A stretch of DNA of 64,000 nucleotides from Eledone cirrhosa (taxonomy: Eukaryota). Both the position numbers and the translations under genes were made by a program. Positions within the stretch are counted from its first letter, which is position 1; every line of letters begins with the position of its first letter. The stretch lies in the NCBI GenBank assembly GCA_964016885.1, contig OZ024759.1, positions 31,062,001 to 31,126,000 on the forward strand. The letters are read 5' to 3'. The notes under the pieces were generated by a model that saw nothing but the letters and a program-made list of their open reading frames with translations, was not told where the DNA came from and did not search any database. Shown here piece by piece: positions 1-64,000 of this stretch.

Positions 1-505
1 GTGAGGAGGGCGACTTTGGACATCCTGCAGGACTAAAAACAAAACCTGTCAAAGGGCAAAGGACCTCTTAAGAGTCAATGGCCATCCAAAATCATCGGGA
101 GAGATGACCCCTTAGCCTTTGTCTAGGCAGAATTCTAGGAGAAGGAAAACTCTGATATAACACCTGCAACCCTGGTGGTATCCAATGATGTTGACTTGTT
201 CTTCTTTCTGGTAAATATCATCTTGGTTAAGAGAGTGGGACTGGCTTTGTGCAGTGCCTTTGCTCACTATAAAAGCTTCACGGCACAGGCATTGCTTTAT
301 ATCTGGAGATCTCTCTGCACTTGTCGTCACATGGTACCATGGGCCCAGCACTATGTGTCAATAATTGTCACAAGTGTAGTGTTTGTACCAGAGTTTTCAA
401 TACGCTGGCTGGACTAAAAAGTCACACTCGTTCAGAGCATCGGTAGGGGTTCTCCTACATGGATATAAAGTAGTGGCCGTACTCGAAAACGAGTTGGCAG
501 CCACC
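1..505 (+). mobile_element. Non-autonomous RTE-derived short element, copy 1 (5' part lies outside the window)
   Basis: Highly similar to 46752-47254. It ends in a decayed CxxC..H..H zinc-finger tail followed by (TA)n. Confidence 0.6.
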
Positions 506-2283: not shown

Positions 2284-3012
2284 TCATTTTGTCCTTAAAT
2301 GTAAGTTGTGATGTTTTCTATTTAATTTTGGTTGGAGTTCATTTATGTTTATTGCCTCTGTGATTTGTCTAAACATTGCGTCTTTTCTGTGTGTAGATGC
2401 TATCTTTATTTCTATGTCCTCTAATCTGCCCTTATGTTCTATTTTAGCATGTTGGTGGAGTACAGATGATTCTTTACTATCTGAAAGTTCTCGCCAGTGT
2501 TCATTTATCCGTTCTCCTATACTACGAGCTGTCTCACCTATGTACATTATATTCTTATTTCTACATTGTCCTTCAGTACATCTTATGCTATATACTACAT
2601 TTCTAGTTTTACAGTTAATATGGGGGCTTAGTTTACAGATTATACATTTCTTATCTATACAGGGAGATCTTTCAAAAGGGTATGTATTGCTAATAAGTGT
2701 TTTTATGGAGGTACCTGGTCTTTCTACTATCTTAATATTGAGTTTATGTTTATCTAGGACCCTTCTAAATTTGTAAGCTAATTCACCTCTAGGGGTTGTA
2801 TTGATGAACATTACACTCTGGTATTTATTGCTATCATACCATGAGTTTATCCTATTAACCTTATTCCTAGATCTTTCTATTCTATTCCAAAATTTGCTCC
2901 TATACAAGGGGCAGGTCCCAGTTGTATCATTATTTACCATTTTTTCCCATTTGGTTCTGGCTCCTCTACATACTTTGATTTTATCTCTCTGATTGTAACC
3001 AGAGAACTGCAT
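2284..3012 (-). CDS. C-terminal part of a PLE polyprotein: RT thumb/linker, CxxxxCxxC knuckle and GIY-YIG endonuclease (5' truncated, so the Met is not the true start)
   Basis: Motifs QFSGY, PLYRSKFW, CIDKKCIIC, NVVYSIRC..C..YIGETARSIGERINEH, SVLHQH..EH and RQITEAININELQPKLN. The frame stays open upstream up to the (TA)n at ~3030. Confidence 0.88.
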   Translation of the reverse strand: MQFSGYNQRDKIKVCRGARTKWEKMVNNDTTGTCPLYRSKFWNRIERSRNKVNRINSWYDSNKYQSVMFINTTPRGELAYKFRRVLDKHKLNIKIVERPGTSIKTLISNTYPFERSPCIDKKCIICKLSPHINCKTRNVVYSIRCTEGQCRNKNIMYIGETARSIGERINEHWRELSDSKESSVLHQHAKIEHKGRLEDIEIKIASTHRKDAMFRQITEAININELQPKLNRKHHNLHLRTK

Positions 3013-3027
3013 ACAGTGGATGAAGTG

Positions 3028-31439: not shown

Positions 31440-31650
31440 AAGGTGGCGAATTGGCAGAGTCGTTAAGACATCGGATAGCATGCTTTACAGTGTTCGTCCC
31501 ACCTCATTGCCCGCTCTGAGTTCAAATCCCGCTGTTGTCAACTGTGCCTCCAATCGTTTCGAGGTCCATAAAAAAGGTCCAGTCCAGTACTGGGATCGAT
31601 TGTTCTTCTACAGAAAAAAATCGGCTGTGTTCAGACCTTGTGATAACCAT
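31440..31650 (+). mobile_element. Diverged Deu/Nin SINE
   Basis: GGTGGCGAATTGGCAGAGTCGTTA..GAGTTCAAATCCCGC. Confidence 0.65.
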
Positions 31651-39241: not shown

Positions 39242-39322
39242 CTTATATATGTTGAAACAAAATGAAAACGAAATTTCATTTCTCACTCTTAGTATGGCAC
39301 TTACTTAAATGGCAGATGGGTA

Positions 39323-39367
39323 AACGGTGCTGATGATAGCTAACAAGCTTGAAACTAGTACATCGTT
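39323..39367 (+). ncRNA. Canonical minimal type-I hammerhead ribozyme in a PLE pLTR (39260-39620)
   Basis: AACGGTG-CTGATGA-TAGCT-AACA-AGCTT-GAAA-CTAG-TA-CATCGTT. A mutated copy lies at 48418-48461 on the minus strand. Confidence 0.82.
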
Positions 39368-39828
39368 CCTGTGTCAGTGTTGAACAAAAAGGTGACGTGG
39401 TTGCCTTAACACCGTATGGCATAAATTCAGGCTGTTCAGTTTGTTTACAAACGAACAAAGCGACGTTATAATAAGCGCCGCTAAACTGATACGTGCATAT
39501 ATGTATGTGTACCTGTATGCATATGTATGTATATATGTATATATATATATATATATATGTGCATGCTACTGTACGTCTGTATACATATATGTATGTACGT
39601 ATACATGCATACTTATACTTATATATGTATATATACTTATATATACTTATATATGTATATAAACTCATATATGTACATATATATATATATATATATACAT
39701 GCAAATATATATATGTACATATATACTTATATATATATGCTTATATATAAATACTTATATATATAGTGGTAGAACACTGGAAGGTAATATCCGTAGTGGT
39801 AGAGCACTCTGTCCAAGGGACGAGTTAG

Positions 39829-46645: not shown

Positions 46646-47254
46646 TGTGTCAGGTCACCAGTTGGTGCTACTGGTAACATGTATCCCAGTCCAACCTGTC
46701 TCATGGTCGGGTCGTTGGCGACTAAACTGGCAACCCCACCAAGGTTTCTTGGTGAGGAGGGTGACTTTGGACATCCTGCAGGACTAAAAACAAAACCTGT
46801 CAAAGGGCAAAGGAGTTCTTAAGAGTCAATGGCCATCCAAAATCACCGGGAGAGATGACTCCTTAGCTTTTGTCAAGGCAGAATTCTAGGAGAAGGAAAA
46901 CTCTGATATAACACCTGCAACCCTGATGGTATCCAATGATGTTGACTTGTTCTTCTTTTTGGTAAATATCATCTTGGTTAAGAGAGTGGGACTGGCTTTG
47001 TGCAGTGCCTTTGCTCACTATAAAAGCTTCACGGCACAGGCATTGCTTTATATCTGGAGATCTCTCTGCACTTGTCGTTACATGGTTCCATGGGCCCAGT
47101 ACTGTGTCAATAATTGTCACAAGTGTAGTGTTTGTACCAGAGTTTTCAAGTCGCTGGCTGGACTAAAAAGTCACACTTGTTTAGCGCATCGGTAGGGGTT
47201 CTCCTACATGGATATAAAGTAGTGGCCGTACTCGAAAACGAGTTGACAGCCACC
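46646..47254 (+). mobile_element. Non-autonomous RTE-derived ~610-bp element, copy 2
   Basis: A 5'-UTR-like head is joined to an ORF tail CHKCSVCTRVFKSLAGLKSHTCLAHR*, a terminal zinc finger typical of some RTE ORFs. Flanked by (TA)n-rich DNA. Confidence 0.6.
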
Positions 47255-47342
47255 ATATGTATATATATGTATATATATATATGTATACATATGTATATAT
47301 ATATTTATATTTATACATATGTATATGCATATATATGTATAT

Positions 47343-47590
47343 AGTGGACAGAGACTCAGATTTGCTGGCCACTGTTGGCGCAGCAAGGAAGAAATAGCAG
47401 GGGATGTGTTGTTATGGAGTCCATCTCATGGAGCAAGAAACGCTGGTCGTCCCAAGAAGACATACGTCAAGCAAATTGAGGACGCTACTGGATGCACTGC
47501 GGAAGAACTGGCAAACGCTATGAGAGACAGAGATGGATGGAGGAAACGTGTCGTAGAAAGCCGAGCAAGCTCGATCTGATGATGATGATG
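47343..47590 (+). mobile_element. RTE-clade LINE 3' end with a (TGA)n tail
   Basis: QRLRFAGHCWRSKEEIAGDVLLWSP..GRPKKTY..MRDRDGWRKRV, then TGATGATGATG. Confidence 0.85.
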
Positions 47591-48086
47591 ATATATATAT
47601 GTGTGTGTGTGTGTGTGTGGAATATTACTGCAATAAATTAACAGAGCAAATAACCTGATTGCTTTATAGTATTCAGCGTCTTTTGTTGCTGGTCAAATAT
47701 TTCTCATTCACAGTTGAATTTTCGAAATTCATCGAAATTCATCGATTAAGAACATTCATAACTTCTGAATATCAATTAAAATTATTCATCTCAATTAGCA
47801 TCTTCTGATTGCCAACCAAAGAAATTAAAATTAAAAATGGCCGTCTATTTACCTTAGTGTCTGAAAATCTAATTCTATAGATAATTAGAATGACAACTAG
47901 TCGTAGGTGGTTTGTTCTGATACTCTACAGTAAATTGTTGACTATGAAAGTCATTTTACTACTAATGGCGAATAAATCATATATATATATATACAATAAA
48001 TGTTATATACATATCTATATCCTGATTGGTGATGTTGGTACTGTTGATTATGAAAGTCATTTTACTAGTAATGGCATCCATATATA

Positions 48087-48675
<589 letters not shown>

Positions 48676-48849
48676 ATATATAAATATATATATGATATAT
48701 ATGCCATTACTAGTAAGATGACTTTCATAATCAACATTTACAGCTGACGATGGGAACTCCTTTCTTCTTTTCTCCTCCTGTTCCGTCCTAACCACCATCC
48801 TAAATCTTGTTTTTAGTAACCACACAGCTCCTTTCGTTTCATAACATTT

Positions 48850-48892
<43 letters not shown>

Positions 48893-49097
48893 GTGTGTGT
48901 GTATGTATATATATACAATAAACGTTATATGCATATCCTGATAGTCTACTGTGAATTGGTGATGTTCATTTTGTTGACTATGAAGGTCATTTTAATAATT
49001 ATGGCATATATACCATATATATCTATATATATATTTACAATAAATGTTATATGAATATATATGTAATATAATTCGGTTTATGTATTAGCTCATATTA

Positions 49098-52000
49098 TTA
49101 GTCATTTATGATGCCGTTTTAGCTATTTTGGTGTCGTTTGAGTCATTTATGATCACGTTTTAGTCATTTATGATGCTGTTTTAGCCATTTTAGTAATTTA
49201 TGATGAGGTTTAGGCCAATTTAGTCATTCATGATGAAGTTTTAGTCTTTTATGATGACGTGTTTGTCATTTATGATGCCGTTTTAGCCATTTTAGAGTGA
49301 TTTTAGTCATTTATGATTACATTTTAGCCGCTTTAGCCATTTGAGATGACGTTTTAGCCATTTTAGTGTCATTTTAGTCATTTTTGATGCCGGGTTAGTC
49401 ATTTTAGTGTCATTTTAGTTAATTATGTTGCGGTTTTAGCCAATTTCGTCGTTTAAGATGACGTTATAGTCATTTATGATGAGGTTTTAGTCATTTATGA
49501 TGTCGTTTTAGCCATTTTAGAGACAATTTAGTCGTTTATGAGGACGTTGTAGCCATTTTATGTCATTTTAATCATTTATGATGACGTTTTAGCCATTTTA
49601 GTCATTTATGATGAGGTTTTAGCCATTTTAGTCATTTATGATGCCGTTTAAAGCCATTTTAGTCATTCATGATGTCGTTTTAGCCATTTTAGTCATTTAT
49701 GATGACGTTTTAGTAATTTATGATGACGTTTTAGCTATTTTAGTGATTTATGATGACGTTTTAGTCATTTTAGAGTCAATTTAGCCAGTTATGGTCCCGT
49801 TTAACCATTTTATTGTCATTTTAGTCATTAATAATGCCGTTTTAGCCATATTATTTGAATTTCAGTCATTTATGATGCCGTTTTAGCTATTTTAGTGTCA
49901 TCTTGGTCATTTATGATGCCGTTTTAGCCATTTTACTCATTTATGATGCCGTTTTAGCCATTTTAGTCATTTATGGTGACGTTTTAGGCATTTATGTTGA
50001 CGTTTTAACCATTTTAGTGTTTTTAGTCATTTATGATGCCGTTTTAGTCCTTTTAGTGTCATTTTAGTCATTTATGATGCCATTTTAGTCAATTTAGTCA
50101 TTTATGATGAAGTTTAAACCATTTCAGTCATTTACGATGCCGGTTTATCTATTTTAGAGTCATTTTAGTCATTTATGATGACGGTTTAACCATTTTAGAG
50201 TCATTTTCGTCATTTATGATGCCGTTCATGCTAATTTAGTGTCATTTTAGTCATTTTGGTGTCATTTTTGTTATTTACGATGCTGTTTTAGCCATTTTAG
50301 TGTCATTTTAGTCATTTATGATGCCGTTTTAGCCATTTTAGTGTCATCTTAGTCATTTATGATGCCGTCTTAGCCATTTTACTCATTTATGATGCCGTTT
50401 TAACCATTTTAGTCATTGATGGTGACGTTTTAGGCATTTATGTTGATGTTTTAGCCATTTTAGTGTGTTTAGTCATTTATGATGCCGTTTTAGTCATTTT
50501 AGTGTCATTTTAGTGTCATTTTAGTGTCATCTTAGTATTTATGATGCCGTTTTAGCCATTTTACTCATTTGTGATGCCGTTTTAGCCATTTTAGTCATTT
50601 ATGGTGACGTTTTAGGCATTTATGTTGATGTTTTAGCCATTTTAGTGTTTTAGTCATTTATGATGCCGTTTTAGTAATTTTAGTGTCATGTTAGTCATTT
50701 ATGATGCCATTTTAGCTAATTTAGTCATTTATGATGACGTTTAAACCATTTTAGTCATTTACAATGCCGTTTTAGCTATTTTAGATTCATTTTAGTCATT
50801 TATGATGACGTTTTAGCGATTTTAGTCATTTATGTTGTCGCTTTAGCCATTTTAGAGTCATTTTCGTCATTTATGATGCCGTTTCCGCTATTTTACTCAT
50901 TTATGATGCCGTCTTCGCCATATTAGTCATTTATGATGAAATTTTAGGCATTTATGTTGATGTTTAAACCATTTTAGTCATTTACGATGCCGTTTTAGCC
51001 ATTTTAGTGTCATTTTAGTAATTATGATGACGTTTTAGCCAATTTAGTTATTTATGATGACGTTTGACCATTTTAGAGTCATTTTCGTCATTTATGATGC
51101 CGTTCAAGCCAATTAGTGTCATTTTAGTCATTTATGACGCAGTTTTAGCCATTTTAGTGTCATTTTAGTCATTTGTTATACCGTTTTAGCCATTTTAGTC
51201 GTTAATGACGACGTTTTAGTCAATTTAGCCATTTATGATAACGTTTTAGCAATTTTAGTGTCATTTTAGTCATTTATGATACCATTTTAGCCATTTTGGT
51301 GTTATTTTAGTTATTTATGATGACGTTTTAGTAATTTTAGAGACAATTTAGCCATTTTGGATGTCGTTTTAGCCATTTGATTGTCATTCTAGTCATTTAT
51401 GATGCCGTTTTAGCCAATTTAGTGTTATATTAGTCCTTTATGATGCCGTTCTAGCCATTTTACTGATGACGTTTAAGTAAATTATGATGACGTTTAAGTA
51501 AATTATGGTGACATTTGTTTATTTATGATGACGTTTTAGCCATTTCAGTCATTTATAATGACGTTTTAGCCATTTTAGTCGTTTATGATGACGTTTAGCC
51601 AATTTAGTCATTTATGATGACGTTTTAGTCATTTATAATGCCGTTTTAGCAATTTTAGTCATTTATGATGAGGTTTTATCCATTTTAGTCATTTATGATG
51701 CCGTTTTAGTAATTTTAGAGTCAATTGAGCCATTTATGGTGCCGTTTTAGTCATTTTATTGCCATCTTAAGTCACTTATGATGACGTTTTAGCTAATTTA
51801 GTGTCATTTTAGTCATTTATGATGCAGTTTTAGCCATTCTAGTAATTTATGATGAAGTTTTAGCTATTTTAATCATTGATGATGACGTTTTAGTCATTTT
51901 AGAGACAATTTGGCCATTTTGGATGTCGTTTTAGCCATTTTATTGTCATTCTAGTCATTTATGATGCTGTTTTAGAAATTTTAGTGTTATTTTAGTCATT

Positions 52001-55000
52001 TATGATGACGTTTTAGCCAATATAGTCCTTTATGATGACGTTTAAGTAAATTATGATGACGTTTGTTTATTTATGATGACGTTTTAGCTATTTCAGTCAT
52101 TTATAATGCCGTTTTAGCCATTTTAGTCGTTAATAATGCCGTTTTTGCCATTTTAGTCATTTATGATGAGGTTTTATCCATTTTAGTCATTTATGATGCC
52201 GTTTTAGTCATTTTAGAGTCAATTTAGCCATTTATGGTGCCGTTTTAGCCATTTTATTGCCATCTTAAGTCACTTATGATGCCGTTTTAGCTTATTTAGT
52301 GTCATTTTAGTCATTTATGATAACGTTTTAGCTATTTTAATCATTGATGATGACGTTTTAGCCATTTTAGAGTCATTTAAGTCATTTATGATGCCGTATT
52401 AGCACTTTTATAGTCAATTTAGCCATTTATGATGCCGTTTTTACCATTTTATTGTCATTTTAGTCATTTATGATGCTGATTTAGCTAATTTAGTGTCATT
52501 TTAGTCATTTATGATGACGTTTTAGTCATTTATGATAACGTTTTAGCTATTTTAATCATTGATGATGACGTTTTAGCCAATTTAGAGTCATTGAAGTCAT
52601 TTATGATGCAGTTTTAGCCCTTTTAGAGTCAACTTTTCATTTATGATGCCGGTTTTAGCCATGTTAGTGTCATTTTAGTTATTTATGATGCCGTTCTAAC
52701 CATTTTACTGTCATTTTAGTCATTTATGATGCTGTTTTAGCAATGTTAGTGTTATTTTAGTCATTTATGATGCAGTTTTAGCCATTCTAGTAATTTATGA
52801 TGAAGTTTTAGCTATTTTAATCATTGATGATGACGTTTTAGCCATTTTAGAGTCATTTAAGTCATTTCTGATGCCGTTTGAGCCCTTTTAGAGTCAATTT
52901 AGCCATTTATGATGCCGTTTTAACCATTTTATTGTCATTTTAGTCATTTATGATGCCGTTTTAGCTAATTTAGTGTCATTTTAGTCATTTATGATGACGT
53001 TTTATTGATTTATGATAACGTTTTAGCTATTTTAATCAATGCTGATGACGTTTTAGCCAATTTAGAGTCATTGAAGTCATTTATGGTGCCGTTTTAGGCC
53101 TTTTAGAGTCATTTTAGTCATTTATGATGCCGTTTTAGCCATTTTAGTCGTTTATGATGACGTTTTAGACAATTTAGTCCTTTATGATGACCTTTTAGCC
53201 ATTTTAGTTATTTATGATGACTTTTCAGCCATGTTAGTCATTTATGATGACGTTTTAGTCATTTTAGAGACAATTTGGCCATTTTGGATGTCGTTTTAGC
53301 CATTTTATTGTCATTCTAGTCATTTATGATGCTGTTTTAGCAATTTTAGTCATTTATGATGACGTTTTAGCCAATATAGTCCTTTATGATGACGTTTAAG
53401 TAAATTATGATGACGTTTGTTTATTTATGATGACGTTTTAGCTATTTCAGTCATTTATAATGCCGTTTTAGCCATTTTAGTCGTTAATAATGTCGTTTTC
53501 GCCATTTTAGTCATTTATGATGAGGTTTTATCCATTTTAGTCATTTATGATGCCGTTTTAGTCATTTTAGAGTCAATTTAGCCATTTATGGTGCCGTTTT
53601 AGCCATTTTATTGCCATCTTAAGTCACTTATGATGCCATTTTAGCTTATTTAGTGTCATTTTAGTCATTTATGATGCCGTTTTAGCCATTCTAGTCATTT
53701 ATGATGACGTTTTAGTCATTTATGATAACGTCTTAGCTATTTTAATCAATGATGATGACGTTTTAGCCATTTTAGAGTCATTTAAGTCATTTATGATGCC
53801 GTATTAGCCCTTTTAGAGTCAATTTAGCCATTTATGATGCCGTTTTAACCATTTTATTGTCATTTTAGTCATTTATGATGCCGTTTTAGCTAATTTAGTG
53901 TCATTTTAGTCATTTATGATGACGTTTTATTCATTTATGATAACGTTTTAGCTATTTTAATCATTGAAGATGACGTTTTAGCCAATTTAGAGTCATTGAA
54001 GTCATTTATGATGCCGTTTTAGCCCTTTTAGAGTCAATTTAGCCATTTATGGTGCAGTTTTAGCCATGTTATTGCCATCTTAAGTCACTTATGATGCCCT
54101 TTTAGCTAATTTAGCGTCATTTTAGTCATATATGATGACATTTTGGTCATTTATCATGCCGTTTTAGCCATTCTAGTCATTTATGATGACGTTTTAGTTA
54201 TTTATGATAACGTTTTAGCTATTTTAATCATTGATAATGACGTTTTAGCCATTTCAGAGTCATTTTAGTCATTTACGATGCCGTTTTAGCCAATTTAGTG
54301 TTATATTAGTCCTTTATGATGCCGTTCTAGCCATTTTACTGTCATTTTAGTCACTTATGATGCTGTTTTAGCAATTTTAGTGTTATTTTAGTCATTTATG
54401 ATGTAATTTTAGTCATTTATGATGAGGTTTTAGCCAATGTAGTCCTTTATGATGACGTTTAAGTAAATTATGATGACGTTTAATTAAATTATGATGACGT
54501 TTGTTTATTTATGATGACGTTTTAGCCATTTCAGTCATTTATAATGCCGTTTTAGTCATTTTAGTCGTTTATGATGACGTTTTAGCCAGTTTAGTCTTTT
54601 ATGATGACGTTTTAGTCATTTATAATGCCGTTTTAGCCATTTTAGTCATTTATGATGAGGTTTTATCCATTTTAGTCATTTATGATGCCGTGTTAGTCAT
54701 TTTAGAGCCAATTTAGCCATTTATGGTGCCGTTTTAGCCATTTTATTGCCATCTTAAGTCACTTATGATGCCGTTTTAGCCATTTTATTGCCATCTTAAG
54801 TCACTTATGATGCCGTTTTAGCTAATTTAGTGTCATTTTAGTCATTTCTGATGCCGTTTTAGACATTCTAGTAATTTATGATGACGTTTTAGTCATTTAT
54901 GATAACGTTTTAGCTATTTTAATCATTGATGATGACGTTTTAGCCATTTTAGAGTCATTTAAGTCATTTATGATGCCGTATTAGCACTTTTATAGTCAAT

Positions 55001-55499
55001 TTAGCCATTTATGATGCCGTTTTTACCATTTTATTGTCATTTTAGTCATTTATGATGCTGATTTAGCTAATTTAGTGTCATTTTAGTCATTTATGATGAC
55101 GTTTTAGTCATTTATGATAACGTTTTAGCTATTTTAATCATTGATGATGACGTTTTAGCCAATTTAGAGTCATTGAAGTCATTTATGATGCAGTTTTAGC
55201 CCTTTTAGAGTCAACTTTTCATTTATGATGCCGGTTTTAGCCATTTTAGTCATTTATGATGTCGTTTTAGCCAATTTAGTGTTATATTAGTCCTTTATGA
55301 TGCCGTTCTAGCCATTTTACTGTCATTTTAGTCATTTATGATGCTGTTTTAGCAATTTTAGGGATATTTTAGTCATTTGTGATGCAATTATAGTCATTTA
55401 TGATGACGTTTTAGCCAATGTAGTCCTTTATCATGACGTTTAAGTAAATTCTGATGACGTTTAAGTAAATTATGATGACGTTTGTTTATTTATGATGAC
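49098..55499 (+). repeat. Satellite array, left arm (TTTTAGCCA / TTTTAGTGTCA / TTTTAGTCA / TTTATGATGMCG modules forming 21-, 30- and 41-bp units)
   Basis: A continuous 6.4-kb degenerate tandem array with higher-order blocks. Confidence 0.97.
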
Positions 55500-58400
55500 T
55501 AAAATGGCTAAAACTGCATCATAAATGACTAAAATAACACTAAAATTGCTAGAACGGCATCATAAAGGGCTAATATAACACTAAATTAGCTAAAACGGCA
55601 TCATAAATTACTAGAATGACAATAAAATGGCTAAAACGACATCCAAAATGGCCAAATTGTCTCTAAAATGAAGAAAACGGCATCATAAATGACTAAAATG
55701 ACACTGAAATGGCTAAAACGGCATCATCGATGACTAAAATGACAATAAAATGGCTAACACGTCATCATAAATGACTAACATGGCTGAAACGTCATCATAA
55801 ATAACTAAAATGGCTAAAAGGTCATCATAAAGGACTAAATTGTCTAAAGCGTCATCATAAACGACTAAAATGGCTAAAACGGCATTATAAATGACTAAAA
55901 TAACACTAAAATGGCTAAAACCGGCATCATAAATGACTTCAATGACACTAAAATGGCTAAAACGTCATCATCAATGATTAAAATAGCTAAAACGTTATCA
56001 TAAATGACTAAAACGGCACCATAAATGGCTAAAACGACATCATAAATGACTAAAATGGCTAAAACTGCATCATAAATGACTAAAATGACAAGGAAATGGT
56101 TAAAACGGCATCATAAATGGCTAAATTGACTCTAAAAGGGCTAAAACGGCATCATAAATGACTTAAATGACTCTAAAATGGCTAAAACATCATCATCAAG
56201 GATTAAAATAGCTAAAACGTTATCATAAATGACTAAAACGTCATCATATATTACTAGAATGGCTAAAACGGCATCATAAGTGACTAAAATGACACTAAAT
56301 TAGCTAAAACGGCATCATAAATGACTAAAATGACAATAAAATGGTTAAAACGGCATCATAAATGGCTAAATTGACTCTAAAAGGGCTAATACGGCATCAT
56401 AAATGACTTAAATGACTCTAAAATGGCTAAAACGTCATCATCAATGACTAGAATGGCTAAAACGGCATCATAAATGACTAAAATGACACTAAATTAGCTA
56501 AAACGGCATCATAAATGACTTAACATGGCAATAAAATGGCTAAAACGGCACCATAAATGGCTAAATTGGCTCTAAAATGATTACAACGTCATCATAAAGG
56601 ACTAAATTGGCTAAAACGTCATCATAAACGACTTAAATGGCTAAAACGGCATTAAAAATGACTGAAATCGCCGAAACGGCATCATAAATAAACAAACGTC
56701 ATCATAATTTAATTAAACGTAATCATAATTTACTTAAACCTCATCATAAAGGACTACATTGGCTAAAACGTCATGATAAATGACAAAAATTGCATCATAA
56801 CTGACTAAAATAACACAAAATTGGCTAAAACGGCATCATAAATGACTAGAATGACAATAAAATGTCTAAAACGACATCCGAAATGGCCAAATTGTCTCTA
56901 AAATGACTAAAACGTCATCATAAATGACTACAATTGCTAAAACATCATCATAAATGACTAAAATTGCTAAAACAGCATCATAAATGACTAAAATAGCTTA
57001 AAAATGCATCATAAATGACTAAAATGACACTGAAATGGCTAAAACGGCATCATAAATGACTAAAATGACAATAAAATGACTAAAACGGCAACATAAATGG
57101 CTAAATTGACTCTAAAATGGCTAAAACGTCATCATAAATAGCTAACATGGCCGAAACGTCATCATAAATAGCTACAATGGCTAAAAAGTCATCATAAAGA
57201 CTAAATTGTCTAAAACTTCATCATAAACGACTAAAATGGCTAAAACGGCATCATAAATGATTAAATTGCACTAAAATGGCTAAAACCTCATAATCAATGA
57301 TTAAAATAGCTAAAACGTTATCATAAATGACTAAAACTTTATCATAAATGACTAAAATGACAATAAAATGGTTAAAACGGCATCATAAACGACTAAATTG
57401 ACTCTAAAAAGGCTACAACGGCATCATAAATGACTTCAATGACTCTAAAATGGCTAAAACCTCATAATAAATGATTAAAATAGCTAAAACGTTATCATAA
57501 ATGACTAAAACTTTATCATAAATGACTAAAATGACAATAAAATGGTTAAAACGGCATCATAAACGACTAAAATGGCTAAAACGGCATTATAAATGACTGA
57601 AATGGCTGAAACGTCATCATAAATAAACAAACGTCATCATAATTTACTTAAACGTCATCATAAAGGAGTACATTGGCTAAAACGTCATCATAAATGACTA
57701 AAATTGCATCATAAATGACTAAAATAACACTAAAATTGCTAAAACAGCATCATAAATGACTAGAATGACAGTAAAATGGCTAGAACGGCATCATAAAGAA
57801 CTAATATGACACTAAATTGGCTAAAACGGCATCATAAATGACTAGAATGACAATAAAATGGCTAAAACGACATCCAAAATGGCCAAATTGTCTCTAAAAT
57901 GACTAAAACGTCATCATAAATGACTAGAATGACAATAAAATGGCTAAAACGACATCCAAAATGGCCAAATTGTCTCTAAAATGACTAAAACGTCATCATA
58001 AATGACTAAAATTGCTAAAACAGCATAATAAATGACTAAAATAGCTAAAAACGTCATCATAAATGACTAAAATGACACTAAATTAGCTAAAACGGCATCA
58101 TAAATGACTTAAGACGGCAATAAAATGGCTGAGACGACACCATAAATGGCCAAATTGACTCTAAAATGGGTAAAACTGCATCATAAATGACTAAAATAAC
58201 ATTAGATTGCTAAATCAGCATCATAAATGACTAAAATGACAGTAAAATGGCTAGAACGGCATCATAAAGGTCTAATATAACACTAAATTGGCTAAAACGG
58301 CATTATAAATGACTAGAATGACAATAAATGGCTAAAACGACATCCAAAATGGCCAAATTGTCTCTAAAATGACTAAAACGTCATCATAAATGACTAAAAT

Positions 58401-61400
58401 TGCTAAAACAGCATAATAAATGACTAAAATAGCTAAAAACGGCATCATAAATGACTAAAATGACACTAAATTAGCTAAAACGGCATCATAAATGACTTAA
58501 GACGGCAATAAAATGGCTGAGACGACACCATAAATGGCCAAACTGACTCTAAAATGGGTAAAACTGCATCATAAATGACTAAAATAACATTAGATTGCTA
58601 AATCAGCATCATAAATGACTAAAATGACAGTAAAATGGCTAGAACGGCATCATAAAGGTCTAATATAACACTAAATTGGCTAAAACGGCTTCATAAATGA
58701 CTAGAATGACAATAAAATGGCTAAAACGACATCCAAAATGGCCAAATTGTCTCTAAAATGACTAAAACGTCATCATAAATGACTAAATTGCTAAAACAGC
58801 ATCATAAATGACTAAAATAGCTAAAAACGGCATCATAAATTACTAAATTGACACTGAAAGGCTAAAACGGCATCATAAATGACTAAAATGACAATAAAAT
58901 GGCTAAAACGGCAGCATAAATGTCTAAATTGACTCTAAAATGGCTAACACGTCATCATAAATGACTAACATGGCTGAAACGTCATCTTAAATAACTAAAA
59001 TGGCTAAAAGGTCATCATAAAGGACTAAATTGTCTAAAACGTCATCATAAACGACTAAAATGGCTAAAACGGCATCATAAATGACTAAAATGACACTAAA
59101 ATGGCTAAAACCGGCATCATAAGTGGCTACATTGACACTAAAAGGGCTAAAACGGCATCATAAATGACTTCAATGACACTAAAATGGCTAAAACGTCATC
59201 ATCAATGATTAAAATAGCTAAAACGTTATCATAAATGACTAAAACGCCATCATAAATGACTAAAACGACACTAAATTAGCTAAAACGGCATCATAAATGA
59301 CTAAAATGACAATAAAATGGTTAAAACGGCATCATAAATGGCTAAATTGACTCTAAAAGGGCTAATACGGCATCATAAATGACTTAAATGACTCTAAAAT
59401 GGCTAAAACGTCATCATCAATGACTAGAATGGCTAAAACGGCATCATAAATGACTAAAATGACACTAAATTAGCTAAAACGGCATCATAAATGACTTAAC
59501 ATGGCAATAAAATGGCTAAAACGGCACCATAAATGGCTAAATTGGCTCTAAAATGACTAAAACGACATCATAAATGACTAAAATTCATAAAACCTCATCA
59601 TCAATGACTGAAATGGCTAAAACGGCATTATAAATGAGATAAACGTCATCATAAAGGACTACATTTGCTTAAATGTCATCATAAATGACTAAAATGGCTA
59701 AAACTGCATCATAAATGACTAAAATAACACTAAAATTGTTAAAACAGCATCATAAATGACTAAAATGACAATAAAATGGTTAAAACGGCATCATAAACGA
59801 CTAAATTGACTCTAAAAAGGCTACAACGGCATCATAAATGACTTCAATGACTCTAAAATGGCTAAAACCTCATAATAAATGATTAAAATAGCTAAAACGT
59901 TATCATAAATGACTAAAACTTTATCATAAATGACTAAAATGACAATAAAATGGTTAAAACGGCATCATAAACGACTAAAATGGCTAAAACGGCATTATAA
60001 ATGACTGAAATGGCTGAAACGTCATCATAAATAAACAAACGTCATCATAATTTACTTAAACGTCATCATAAAGGAGTACATTGGCTAAAACGTCATCATA
60101 AATGACTAAAATTGCATCATAAATGACTAAAATAACACTAAAATTGTTAAAACAGCATCATAAATGACTAAAATGACAGTAAAATGGCTAGAACGGCATC
60201 ATAAAGGACTAATATAACACTAAATTGGCTAAAACGGCATCATAAATGACTAGAATGACAATAAAATGGCTAAAACGACATCCAAAATGGCCAAATTGTC
60301 TCTAAAATAGCTAAAAACGGCATCATAAATGACTAAAATGCCACTGAAATGGCTAAAACGGCATCATAAACGACTTAAATGACAATAAAATGGCTAAAAC
60401 GGCAACAGAAATGGTTAAATTGACTCTAAAATGGCTAAAACGTCATCATAAAAAAATAACATGGCTGAAACGTCATCATAAATAACGAAAATGGCTAAAA
60501 GGTCATCATAAATCACTAAATTGTCTAAAACGGCATCATAAATGACTAAAATGGCTAAAACCGGCATCATAAATGACTAAATTGACTCTAAAAGGGCTAC
60601 AACGGCATCATAAATGACTTCAATTACTGTAAAATGGCTAAAACGTCATCATCAATTATTGAAATAGCTAAAACGTTATCATAAATCACTAAAACGTCAT
60701 CATAAATGACTAAAATGACACTAAATTAGCTAAAACGGCATCATAAATAACTAAAATGACAATAAAATGGTTAAAACGGCATCATAAATGGCTAAATTGA
60801 CTCTAAAATGACTAAAACGACATCATAAATGACTAAAACGTCATCATAAATGACTAGAATGGCTAAAACGGCATTACAAATGACTAAAATGACAAGAAAA
60901 TGGTTAAAACGACATCATAAATGGCAAAATTGACTCTAAAATGGCTAAAACGTCATCATCAAGGATTAAAATAGCTAAAACGTTATCATAAATGACTAAA
61001 ACGTCATCATAAATTACTAGAATGTCTAAAACGGCATCAGAAATGACTAAAATGACACTAAATTAGCTAAAACGGCATCATAAGTGACTTAAGATGGCAA
61101 TAAAATGGCTAAAACGGCATCATAAGTGACTTAAGATGGCAATAAAATGGCTAAAACGGCACCATAAATGGCTAAATTGGCTCTAAAATGACTAACACGG
61201 CATCATAAATGACTAAAATGGATAAAACCTCATCATAAATGACTAAAATGGCTAAAACGGCATTATAAATGACTAAAACGTCATCATAAAAGACTAAACT
61301 GGCTAAAACGTCATCATAAACGACTAAAATGACTAAAACGGCATTATAAATGACTAAAACGTCATCATAAGTGACTAAATTGCCACTAAATTAGCTAAAA

Positions 61401-63636
61401 CGACATCATAAGTGACTTAAGATGGCAATAAAATGGCTAAAACGGCACCATAAATGGCTAAATTGGCTCTAAAATTACTAAAACGGCATCATAAATGACT
61501 AAAATGTCATCATAAATGACTAAAACCTCATCATAAATGACTAAAATGGTTAAAACGGCATTATAAATGACTAAAACGTCATCATAAAGGACTAAATTGG
61601 CTAAAACGCCATCATAAACGACTAAAATGGCTAAAACGGCATCATATATGACTAGAATGACAATAAAATGGCTAAAACGACATCCAAAATAGCCAAATTG
61701 TCTCTAAAATGACTAAAACGTCATCATAAATGACTAAAATTGCTAAAACAGCATCATAAATGAATAAAATGGCTAAAACAGCATCATAAATGACTAAAAT
61801 GGCTAAAACAGCATCATAAATGACTAAAATTACACTAAAATGGCTAAAACCGGCATCATAAATGGCTATATTGACTCTAAACGGGCTAAAACGGCATCAT
61901 AAATGACTTCAATGACTCTAAAATGGTTAAAACGTCATAATCAATGATTAAAATAGCTAAATCGTTATCATAAATGACTAAAACGTCATCATAAATGACT
62001 GAAATGACGCTAAATTAGCTAAAACGGCATCATAAATGACTAAAATCACAATAAAATGGTTAAAACGGCATCATAAATGGCTAAATTGACTCTAAAAGGG
62101 CTAAAACGGCATCATAAATGACTTAAATGACTCTCAAATGGTTAAAACGTCATAATCAATGATTAAAATAGCTAAATCGTTATCATAAATGACTAAAACG
62201 TGATCATAAATGACTAAAATGACACTAAATTAGCTAAAACGGCATCATAAATGACTAAAATGACAATAAAATGGTTAAAACGGCATCATAAATGGCTAAA
62301 TTGACTCTAAAAGGGCTAAAACGGCATCATAAATGACTTAAATGACTCTCAAATGGCTAAAACGTCATCATCAATTATTAAAATAGCTAAAACGTTATCA
62401 TAAATGACTAAAACGTCATCATAAATGACTAGAATGGCTAAAACGGCATCATAAATGACTAAAATGACACTAAATTAGCTAAAACGGCATCATAAATGAC
62501 TAAAATCACAATATAATGGTTAAAACGGCATCATAAATGGCTAAATTGACTCTAAAAGGGCTAAAACGGCATCATAAATGACTTAAATGACTCTCAAATG
62601 GCTAAAACGTCATCATCAATTATTAAAATAGCTAAAACGTTATCATAAATGACTAAAACGTCATCATAAATGACTAGAATGGCTAAAACGGCATCATAAA
62701 TGACTAAAATGACACTAAATTAGCTAAAACGGCATCATAAGTGACTTAAGATGGCAATAAAATGGCTAAAACGGCACCATAAATGGCTAAATTGGCTCTA
62801 AAATTACTAAAATGGATAAAACCTCATCATAAATGGCTAAAATGGCCTCATAAATGACTAAAATGACACTGAAATGGCTAAAACAGCATCATAAATGACT
62901 AAAATGACACTAAATTGGCTAAAACGGCATCATAAATGATTAAATGACCACAAAATGGCTAAAACGACATCATAACTGGCTAAAGTGACTATAAAATGGC
63001 GTAAACGTCCTCATAAATGACTGAAATGGCTAAAACGGCATCATAAATCACTAAAATGGCAACATAAATGACTAAAACGTCATCATAAATTACTAAAACG
63101 TCATCATGAATGACTAAATTGGCTACAACCGCATCATAAATGACTAAAACATCATCATAAATGACTAAAATGGCTAAAACGTCATCATAAATGACTAAAA
63201 TGGCTAAAACGGCATCACAAATGACTAAATTGTCTCCAAAATGGCTAATTCGGCATCATAAATGACTAAAGAGTCATCATAAATGACTAAAACGTCATCA
63301 TAAATGACGAAATTCGCTAAAACCGCATCAAAAATGACACTAAAAAGACTAAAATGGCATCATAAATGACTAAAATGACACTAAAATGGCTAAAATGGCA
63401 TCAAATATGACTAAAATGACACTAAAATGGATAAAACGTTATCATAAATGACTAAAGCGTCATCATAAATGACTAAAATGACACTACAATGACTATAACA
63501 GCATCATAAATGACTAAAATGTCACTAAAATTGCTAAAACGGCCTTATAAATGACTATAATGACTCTAAAATGGCTAAAACGTCATCATCAATGATTCAA
63601 ATGGCTAAAACGTCCTCATAAATGACTAAAATGACT
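55495..63636 (-). repeat. Same satellite in reverse-complement orientation, right arm (8.1 kb)
   Basis: CATCATAAATGACTAAAATGGCTAAAACG units. The orientation switches abruptly at 55495-55500. Confidence 0.97.
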
Positions 63637-64000
63637 ATTAAAATGCCAATATCTGTACAGCAAGGATGTTGTAGCATTCTCGTATTCTATTAATCTTCAA
63701 TCCTTTTATTGTTTACCATTTACCTTATAAAAGAAACAGCACTATGGATTGAAAGTAGAAATCAATGCAGGAATAATTATATAAAAATCAACACAGAATA
63801 AAATGGTTGTATATTTTCATTAACATTTATTACACATATTACATTACAGCCAATAATGTTACAATGATAACAGCAGTTTTGTCTCTCTTTTCAATCTTTC
63901 CTTTTTTGTTATTCTATTCTTTTGTATTAAAATTACTTAAAATATTTTTATAGTTATTTTAGGTTTTCTTCCATAATGTTTTATGAATTTTTTTTTCTGT

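What the first reader, a model, noticed from the sequence alone, without database searches (positions are those of the whole stretch)
49098..63636. 14.5-kb giant palindrome of satellite DNA with homologous outer ends: a candidate foldback-type element
Seen: the array flips strand once, and the two outer ends are collinear mirror images. About 49330-49830 and the reverse complement of ~62930-63420 share rare variants in the same order (TGCGGTTTTAGC..ATTTCGTC, GAGACAATTTAGTC, GTCATTCATGATG, TTAGTAATTT, TTAGTGATTT, AGCCAGTTATG), although they have diverged. Known: foldback elements (Drosophila FB, Galileo, sea-urchin TU) have long, unequal inverted arms built from short internal tandem repeats. 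Inference: this is a mobile or once-mobile unit with a defined terminus whose arms expanded into satellite, rather than a plain tandem array. No transposase and no TSD are visible, and terminal similarity (~49083-49104 vs ~63631-63651) is weak.
Basis: partly seen in the sequence, partly recalled or inferred. Interest (0 to 1): 0.8.

Follow-up and report, generated by a model that had tools for sequence, protein, structure and literature searches.

The report
Giant hollow foldback with satellite arms
A 14.5-kb stretch of short-repeat DNA in what is likely an octopus genome consists of two mirror-oriented arms with old, weakly matching outer parts and an identical 392-base patch in their inner parts; it is most likely the gene-less relic of a "foldback" jumping element whose arms probably still copy from each other, a known kind of element at an unusual size.

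Summary
The palindrome is real. One minisatellite array (49083-63651) flips strand once, at a 5-bp overlap (55495-55499) with no spacer, giving arms of 6.4 and 8.2 kb. The blocks near the outer ends are each other's best match at mirror positions, but weakly: about 13% mismatch against 16% background; 0-3 of 300 shuffles as good under one scoring, 8-10 of 500 under another. The signal comes mainly from about 200 bp, and the outermost 240 bp show no homology beyond the repeat.

New here: each arm has an old outer ~0.8 kb and a young mosaic interior. The arms share a 392-bp exact patch off the mirror axis, as long as the longest within-arm copies. A candidate 8-bp target duplication (6 of 8 matching) abuts the ends but is not significant. 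No transposase was found. Reads show an abundant repeat family and support the right junction; a shared terminus was not shown.

Best reading (0.55): a non-autonomous foldback relic that lost its centre, with arms turning over by conversion. Rivals: a chimera of two copies or a misjoin (0.2), or a transposon-free satellite dyad (0.2). New member of a known kind; interest 0.38.

The parts
49077..49084 (+). Candidate left target-site duplication TTTATGTA (or only its last TA)
   Evidence: 6 of 8 match with 63650-63657; 8-12% of null flanks do as well
49083..49104 (+). Left terminus: a degenerate subunit pair with a unit lengthened to 12 nt
   Evidence: Weak inverted match to 63632-63651; the 8-nt spacer variant occurs at 3 of 70 left and 1 of 92 right spacers, the right one being the terminus
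49083..49850 (+). Left outer zone: old and diverged, no close copy anywhere in the array
   Evidence: Best block scores 14-18 bits against 29-153 for interior blocks; 41% near-private subunits in the first 500 bp
49331..49534 (+). Sub-terminal block homologous to 63222-63457 (inverted)
   Evidence: Reciprocal best match, 25 of 195 mismatches
49860..51100 (+). Left-arm-only expansion (local duplications, about 95% identical)
   Evidence: Matches within the left arm only: 29-49 bits against 8-12 to the right arm
51110..55499 (+). Left inner zone: young mosaic of higher-order repeat pieces shared with the right arm
54533..54957 (+). Cross-arm patch: 392 bp exact (425 bp, 1 mismatch) with 60931-61355
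   Evidence: 5450 bp from the left end against 2296 bp from the right end, so off the mirror axis
55495..55499 (.). Strand-flip junction: 5-bp overlap ATGAC, no spacer
   Evidence: ATGAC and GTCAT make up 23473 of 48861 possible 5-mer inverted overlaps between the arms
55495..62840 (-). Right inner zone: young mosaic; longest within-arm exact copies 398, 290 and 226 bp
60931..61355 (-). Right partner of the cross-arm patch
62850..63651 (-). Right outer zone: old and diverged, about the same length as the left one
   Evidence: Best block scores 11-18 bits; longest exact matches fall from 82 or more to about 20-40 bp here
63632..63651 (-). Right terminus with a unit lengthened to 12 nt
   Evidence: junction crossed by an 858-nt contig with 0 differences over 63568-64000 in 2 of 3 contig runs
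63650..63657 (+). Candidate right target-site duplication TATCTGTA (or only its first TA)

Best explanation
This is a two-armed inverted minisatellite array with no gene and no spacer, most likely the relic of a non-autonomous foldback-type DNA transposon that probably lost its middle and whose arms likely keep growing and copying from each other. Shown: inverted arms built from four subunits (9, 12, 9 and 11 nt); both ends stop at the same repeat phase; related sub-terminal blocks; an old outer ~0.8 kb on each arm; a young mosaic interior with a 392-bp exact cross-arm patch; a flip at a 5-bp word that the repeat carries in both orientations. Inferred steps: (1) an element with repeat-built terminal inverted repeats was inserted by a transposase encoded elsewhere, possibly leaving an 8-bp duplication, which would fit Mutator-like, hAT, P or Merlin enzymes (superfamily undetermined); (2) the outer parts, pinned against unique flanks, escaped homogenisation and decayed to about 13% mismatch; (3) the inner parts expanded by unequal exchange and patchwise conversion in 0.3-0.6 kb tracts, within and between arms; (4) the centre was deleted or folded back through the ATGAC/GTCAT microhomology. 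With decayed ends and 14.5 kb the copy is probably immobile now.
For: Single flip with unmirrored flanks: the right flank has no hit elsewhere in the window, and none of the first 60 left-flank hits printed lies on it. Sub-terminal blocks are reciprocal best matches at mirror distance. Outer old zones are of like length, about 770 and 800 bp. Both ends carry a subunit lengthened to 12 nt. An 8-mer matching at 6 of 8 abuts the inverted ends exactly; one or two changes are what 13% divergence would give (inference). Longest exact matches: 392 between arms, 358 and 398 within arms; 7 cross-arm matches of 100 bp or more against 4 and 9 within arms. The repeat is abundant: summed contig depth 74,291 against 4.9 on the flank in X18 and 37,206 against 2.9 in X20 (the tool warns this is no copy number). 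Precedents: 9-15-bp subterminal repeats and 8-9-bp duplications in Aedes MULEs (PMC5225508); repeats of Rehavkus termini expanding to 80 kb (PMC12581902); gene-less two-TIR Galileo copies with the longest TIRs and proposed TIR-to-TIR conversion (PMC3573991).
Against: The 8-bp candidate is matched by 8-12% of null flanks; no exact repeat of 7 bp or more. No unique, non-repetitive terminal domain, whereas Tetris and Tm1 have one: the terminal 22 bp are a degenerate subunit pair. The outermost 240 bp show no specific homology. The outer-block signal rests on a few rare alleles and was only p~0.02 under the first scoring. Reads: no place where many molecules end, no loose end at 63649-63651 among the 24 shown (252 not shown), and the last 83 bp of the arm lie on one unbranched low-depth contig, so this exact end is not shared at high identity. 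No transposase in 108 flank ORFs. The cross-arm patch could have come twice from a third copy elsewhere.
Confidence: 0.55

Rival explanations
1. The two arms come from two different copies of the family. They were joined back to back either by ectopic recombination or a rearrangement (real chimera, about 0.13) or by an assembly misjoin inside the repeat (about 0.07).
For: Outer blocks are 13% apart and there is no clean target duplication. The left arm has a 1.2-kb private zone absent on the right. Galileo chimeras have exactly these marks: divergent TIRs and non-matching flanking 7-mers, in 12 of 170 copies (PMC3573991). The central junction was not tested by reads.
Against: A 392-bp exact cross-arm patch, as long as within-arm copies, suggests the arms have been neighbours. 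A 6-of-8 repeat abuts both ends. A read-level foldback artefact would give a near-perfect mirror from the centre outward; the mirror at the centre is only 114 bp with 9 edits.
Confidence: 0.2
2. A satellite macro-dyad with no transposon history. An ordinary array made an inverted copy of itself by a replication U-turn at the ATGAC/GTCAT word inside its own unit; the edges aged and the interior stayed homogenised.
For: No spacer and no unique terminal domain. The junction is at the repeat's commonest inverted 5-mer. The right arm's innermost 114 bp best match the left arm 134 bp from the centre (9 edits; 6.6% of 8400 random cut pairs do as well). In Tribolium freemani 71.8% of TfSat01 arrays are two inverted subarrays, with median uninterrupted array lengths of 9.3-16.3 kb (PMC12581902).
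Against: The copy would have to stop at the array's edge without taking flank, and both ends stop at the same phase with the same lengthened unit. The central mirror is not significant and a copy at 54380 fits almost as well (10 edits). The setting is dispersed repeats and microsatellites, not a satellite block; four core words have no hit outside the array in this window.
Confidence: 0.2
3. A plain tandem array with one inverted segment, the outer-end likeness being chance or post-hoc motif picking.
Against: Reciprocal best match at the mirror position, 0-3 of 300 shuffles in 12 settings. An internal inversion gives two flips, not one.
Confidence: 0.05

Closest known systems
Rehavkus (Mutator-related foldback) elements of Tribolium and their satellite derivatives (PMC12581902 passages; PMC6446971 passages)
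   Same: Inverted termini carrying tandem repeats that can expand to satellite-size arrays (up to 50 repeats in the termini, arrays to 80.5 kb).
   Different: Rehavkus has a central part, 26-400-bp TIRs and 9-bp duplications and is listed for arthropods and annelids; here there is no centre, no unique TIR and no clean duplication.
Muta1/Muta5 MULEs of Aedes aegypti, classed as type-2 Foldback (PMC5225508 passages)
   Same: [quoted passage not shown]
   Different: Their TIRs are about 150 bp with 9 repeats; here 630 and 799 subunits per arm, and no terminal palindromic motif or transposase was found.
Galileo two-TIR and chimeric copies, Drosophila mojavensis (PMC3573991 passages)
   Same: Gene-less copies have the longest TIRs; TIR-to-TIR conversion and chimeras are proposed.
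   Different: Galileo TIRs reach about 1.3 kb at 95% identity with 7-bp duplications (P superfamily); these arms are 5-6 times longer and wholly repetitive.
Tetris (Drosophila virilis; PMC4079207 passages) and Tm1 (Meloidogyne; PMC3169594 passages)
   Same: Non-autonomous foldbacks with modular, repeat-bearing arms; Tetris seeded a satellite.
   Different: Both have unique flanking or terminal domains, a middle part and 8-10-bp duplications; the Tetris repeat is about 220 bp.
Macro-dyad satellite arrays TfSat01/TfSat03 of Tribolium freemani (PMC12581902 passages)
   Same: Two unequal inverted subarrays of kb size with an abrupt flip.
   Different: Those are centromeric, with 340-bp-class monomers (size recalled, not from a call) and conserved flip types shared between chromosomes; here a lone dispersed array whose flip point could not be compared with others.

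Membership tests
Foldback-type elements (a structural class) | Long inverted arms built of internal tandem repeats, often unequal | tested here: met
   6.4 and 8.2 kb arms, 630 and 799 subunits of four types
Foldback-type elements (a structural class) | Homologous outer domains | tested here: met
   Weakly: reciprocal best match over about 200 bp, 0-3 of 300 shuffles, 8-10 of 500
Foldback-type elements (a structural class) | Unique flanking/terminal domain with a sharp shared end | tested here: inconclusive
   Same phase and lengthened unit at both ends, but only degenerate repeat; the outermost 240 bp are not specifically homologous
Foldback-type elements (a structural class) | Middle domain between the arms (variable in known families) | tested here: not met
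   Arms overlap by 5 bp; gene-less two-TIR copies are known for Galileo
Foldback-type elements (a structural class) | Dispersed copies with the same ends and different flanks; empty sites | tested here: inconclusive
   Repeat abundant, but no shared end among the loose ends shown; no genome held
Mutator/MULE incl. Rehavkus, Phantom, Muta | 8-11-bp target-site duplication | tested here: inconclusive
   8-mer with 6 of 8 matching at 49077-49084/63650-63657; null 8-12%
Mutator/MULE incl. Rehavkus, Phantom, Muta | MULE DDE transposase in the element or a partner with the same ends | not testable with these tools
   None in the array (longest stop-free stretch 88 aa) or in 108 flank ORFs; no genome to search for a partner
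Merlin | TIRs starting 5'-GG with 8-9-bp duplication (PMC8101967) | tested here: not met
   With the 8-bp candidate the ends start TTAGC and TTGGC
Tc1/mariner | TA duplication (recalled) | tested here: inconclusive
   TA at 49083-84 and 63650-51; two letters in AT-rich DNA carry little weight
Satellite macro-dyad (Tribolium type) | Most arrays two-armed, with flip points conserved between loci | not testable with these tools
   One locus only; one contig with a strand switch in 1 of 3 contig runs could not be placed

The most novel reading that the evidence does not exclude
Two-armed palindromy is the standard unit of this abundant octopod minisatellite: dispersed, centre-less multi-kb hairpin elements that keep themselves homogeneous by arm-to-arm conversion and spread or grow without carrying a gene. 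That would be a missing link between foldback transposons and macro-dyad satellites, and a dated natural record of intramolecular conversion tracts (0.3-0.6 kb) between inverted repeats.
Probability: 0.15. Interest if true: 0.65.

Novelty: new member of a known kind. Interest (0 to 1): 0.38.

Why it matters
Foldback elements are known sources of satellites and of inversions. This locus holds both stages in one sequence: decayed ends that record age, and an interior still being rewritten, with an exact patch shared across the two arms. If the family is systematically two-armed, it would be a testable model of how transposon arms turn into satellite and how long inverted repeats persist. It would also be a candidate source of rearrangements in a cephalopod genome, a group for which my searches listed no description of foldbacks. 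As a single locus it is a large, tidy example of a known class.

Tried and rejected
No whole genome is held, so the genome-wide survey could not be run. Earlier scan notes had nothing for this genome or sequence. Metagenome scans: 0 hits for a 36-nt pattern; 2 hits for a 21-nt pattern, both single matches in GC-rich contigs without arrays, rejected as chance. Rfam: 0 matches in 47000-64000. Pfam: no transposase domain in 108 flank ORFs of 60 aa or more; low-complexity ORFs and ORFs starting in the array were left out. Unique shared 16-24-mers gave a scatter with no clean diagonal, and plain edit distance hardly separates the outer blocks from background, so rarity-weighted scoring was needed; both scorings are reported. 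A fold-back origin of the centre was tested and is not significant (6.6% of 8400 random pairs). A 9-mer repeat with one mismatch at 49057-49065/63649-63657 would leave 17 unmatched bases on the left, and such hits are at chance level: rejected. A read-level palindrome artefact is rejected because the arms are not mirror-identical from the centre. Depth above single-copy level at 63639-63655 (123.9, 9.4, 59.1 against 4.9, 0, 2.9) could mean other copies with this end, but internal units can align that far too, so I did not count it. 17 of the 23 runs listed held only 5-6% of the words and were not used. Reads were laid on the right end only (4 runs, at most 2 samples); the left end and the centre are untested by reads, and runs X18-X20 may be the assembly's own sample.
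Full report
Setting. The window is AT-rich (GC 23-36% per 2 kb) and full of microsatellites. A GIY-YIG ORF at 2284-3027 (Penelope-like, label recalled) has its best relative in Octopus bimaculoides at 53% identity, and a SINE-like stretch near 31445-31610 resembles octopus tRNA-derived SINEs (recalled). The host is therefore likely an octopod. No genome is held.

Anatomy. The array runs from 49083-49085 to 63649-63651. Core words lie on + up to 55490 and on - from 55496: one flip. It parses into four subunits, A TTTTAGTCA, B TTTATGATGCCG, C TTTTAGCCA and D TTTTAGTGTCA, with variants, mostly in the order A-B-C-D, A-B-C or A-B: 630 subunits on the left and 799 on the right. The longest stop-free stretch is 88 aa, and Rfam finds nothing. 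The arms overlap in ATGAC at 55495-55499 without a spacer. ATGAC and GTCAT together are 23473 of 48861 possible inverted 5-mer overlaps between the arms, so a microhomology join would most often land on this word.

The seven motifs are in mirror order; four are unique pairs, two are not rare. Rare 9-mer chains give the highest left-right value (5) for the outer blocks, though one inner pair reaches 4. With subunit alignments, 49331-49848 and 63407-62915 are reciprocal best matches at the mirror position. Shuffles reached the score in 8 and 10 of 500 runs under a first scoring, and in 0-3 of 300 in all 12 settings of a log-odds scoring written afterwards. The chain is short (49331-49534 against 63457-63222), with 25 of 195 mismatches against a background of 16.2%. 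The outermost 240 bp never find each other. The homology is real but thin.

Three zones. The two outermost 40-subunit blocks of each arm (about 770 bp left, 800 bp right) score only 10-18 bits against anything else, while all other blocks score 29-153. Next on the left, 49860-51100 matches only itself. The interiors are mosaics of shared higher-order pieces. Longest exact matches are 358 bp within the left arm, 398, 290 and 226 bp within the right, and 392 bp between arms (54533-54924 against 61355-60964; 425 bp with one mismatch). Matches of 100 bp or more number 4, 9 and 7. The cross-arm patch is 5450 bp from one end and 2296 bp from the other, so it is not a remnant of the original mirror. 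It overlaps by about 70 bp the 364-bp patch that 54887-55250 shares with 52305-52668, so the left inner end is a chain of recently copied pieces. I infer patchwise conversion or template switching, operating between arms as well as within them, after the ends had diverged. A third donor copy is not excluded.

Ends. Both ends stop at the same phase of the repeat with a unit lengthened to 12 nt. The flanks are not mirrored. No exact direct repeat of 7 bp or more lies near the ends. With ends at 49085 and 63649, TTTATGTA and TATCTGTA abut directly (6 of 8), but 8-12% of null flanks do as well. TA/TA is the other reading.

Reads. Of 23 runs listed, four were laid on 63520-64000. An 858-nt contig crosses the right junction with 0 differences in X18 and X20, not in X19; these runs are one sample and may be the assembly's source. 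Summed depth on the repeat is about 13,000-15,000 times the flank's. The tool warns this is no copy number, but with only 429 B units here the family likely extends well beyond this locus. No place where many molecules end was listed, and the 24 loose ends shown lie inside the repeat (252 not shown). A shared terminus and an empty site were therefore not shown.

Mechanism. Most likely (0.55): a repeat-armed inverted-repeat transposon inserted here; its outer parts decayed, its inner parts expanded and homogenised by exchange within and between arms, and the centre was lost at the repeat's own inverted word. Rivals: two copies joined by recombination or misassembly (0.2); a transposon-free satellite dyad made by a replication U-turn (0.2), for which the 114-bp mirror near the centre is suggestive but not significant (6.6% of 8400 random pairs); a plain inversion with chance end likeness (0.05).

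Known systems. I read passages only, no supplements, of PMC4079207, PMC12581902, PMC6446971, PMC3169594, PMC3573991, PMC8101967 and PMC5225508. Other papers were seen as search listings only. The supplementary figures of PMC12581902 on Rehavkus termini and dyad junctions may bear on how close the match is. The structure works like Rehavkus, Muta or Galileo foldback derivatives and resembles Tribolium macro-dyads. Membership in any transposase superfamily is not established; Merlin's GG start is not met. Searches for foldbacks or such satellites in octopus or cephalopods listed no description, but Repbase and Dfam could not be searched, so the family may already be catalogued. Two unchecked scan notes describe gene-less foldbacks of 13.6-13.8 kb in other genomes, so the size is not unique.

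Verdict. Observation partly confirmed; interpretation partly supported; new member of a known kind; interest 0.38. The cross-arm patch and the age zoning are what make the locus worth a genome-wide look.

Noticed in passing
window 47930-49070: A separate ~100-bp repeat just left of the array: copies at about 47935, 48041 and 48971 on + and an inverted copy at 48637-48741 (92% to 48042-48142), enclosing a stretch also found at 39319-39739; possibly a small inverted-repeat element or template-switch product.
   Followed up: partly
window 2284-3027 (-): 247-aa ORF with a GIY-YIG domain, likely a Penelope-like retroelement fragment (label recalled); best relative from Octopus bimaculoides, 53%.
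   Followed up: partly
window ~31445-31610 (+): SINE-like stretch resembling octopus tRNA-derived SINEs (recalled, not tested).
   Followed up: no
window 115-417 and 46863-47195: Two copies of one repeat with near-identical reading frames; the second ends in a weak C2H2 zinc-finger match below cut-off.
   Followed up: no
reads on window 63559/63600: One contig in run X18 (depth 109, about 22 times the flank) switches strand inside the repeat; not seen in X19 or X20 of the same sample. It may hint at other flip junctions.
   Followed up: no
window 49860-51100: Left-arm-only expansion with its own variants, untouched by the cross-arm sharing seen further in.
   Followed up: partly
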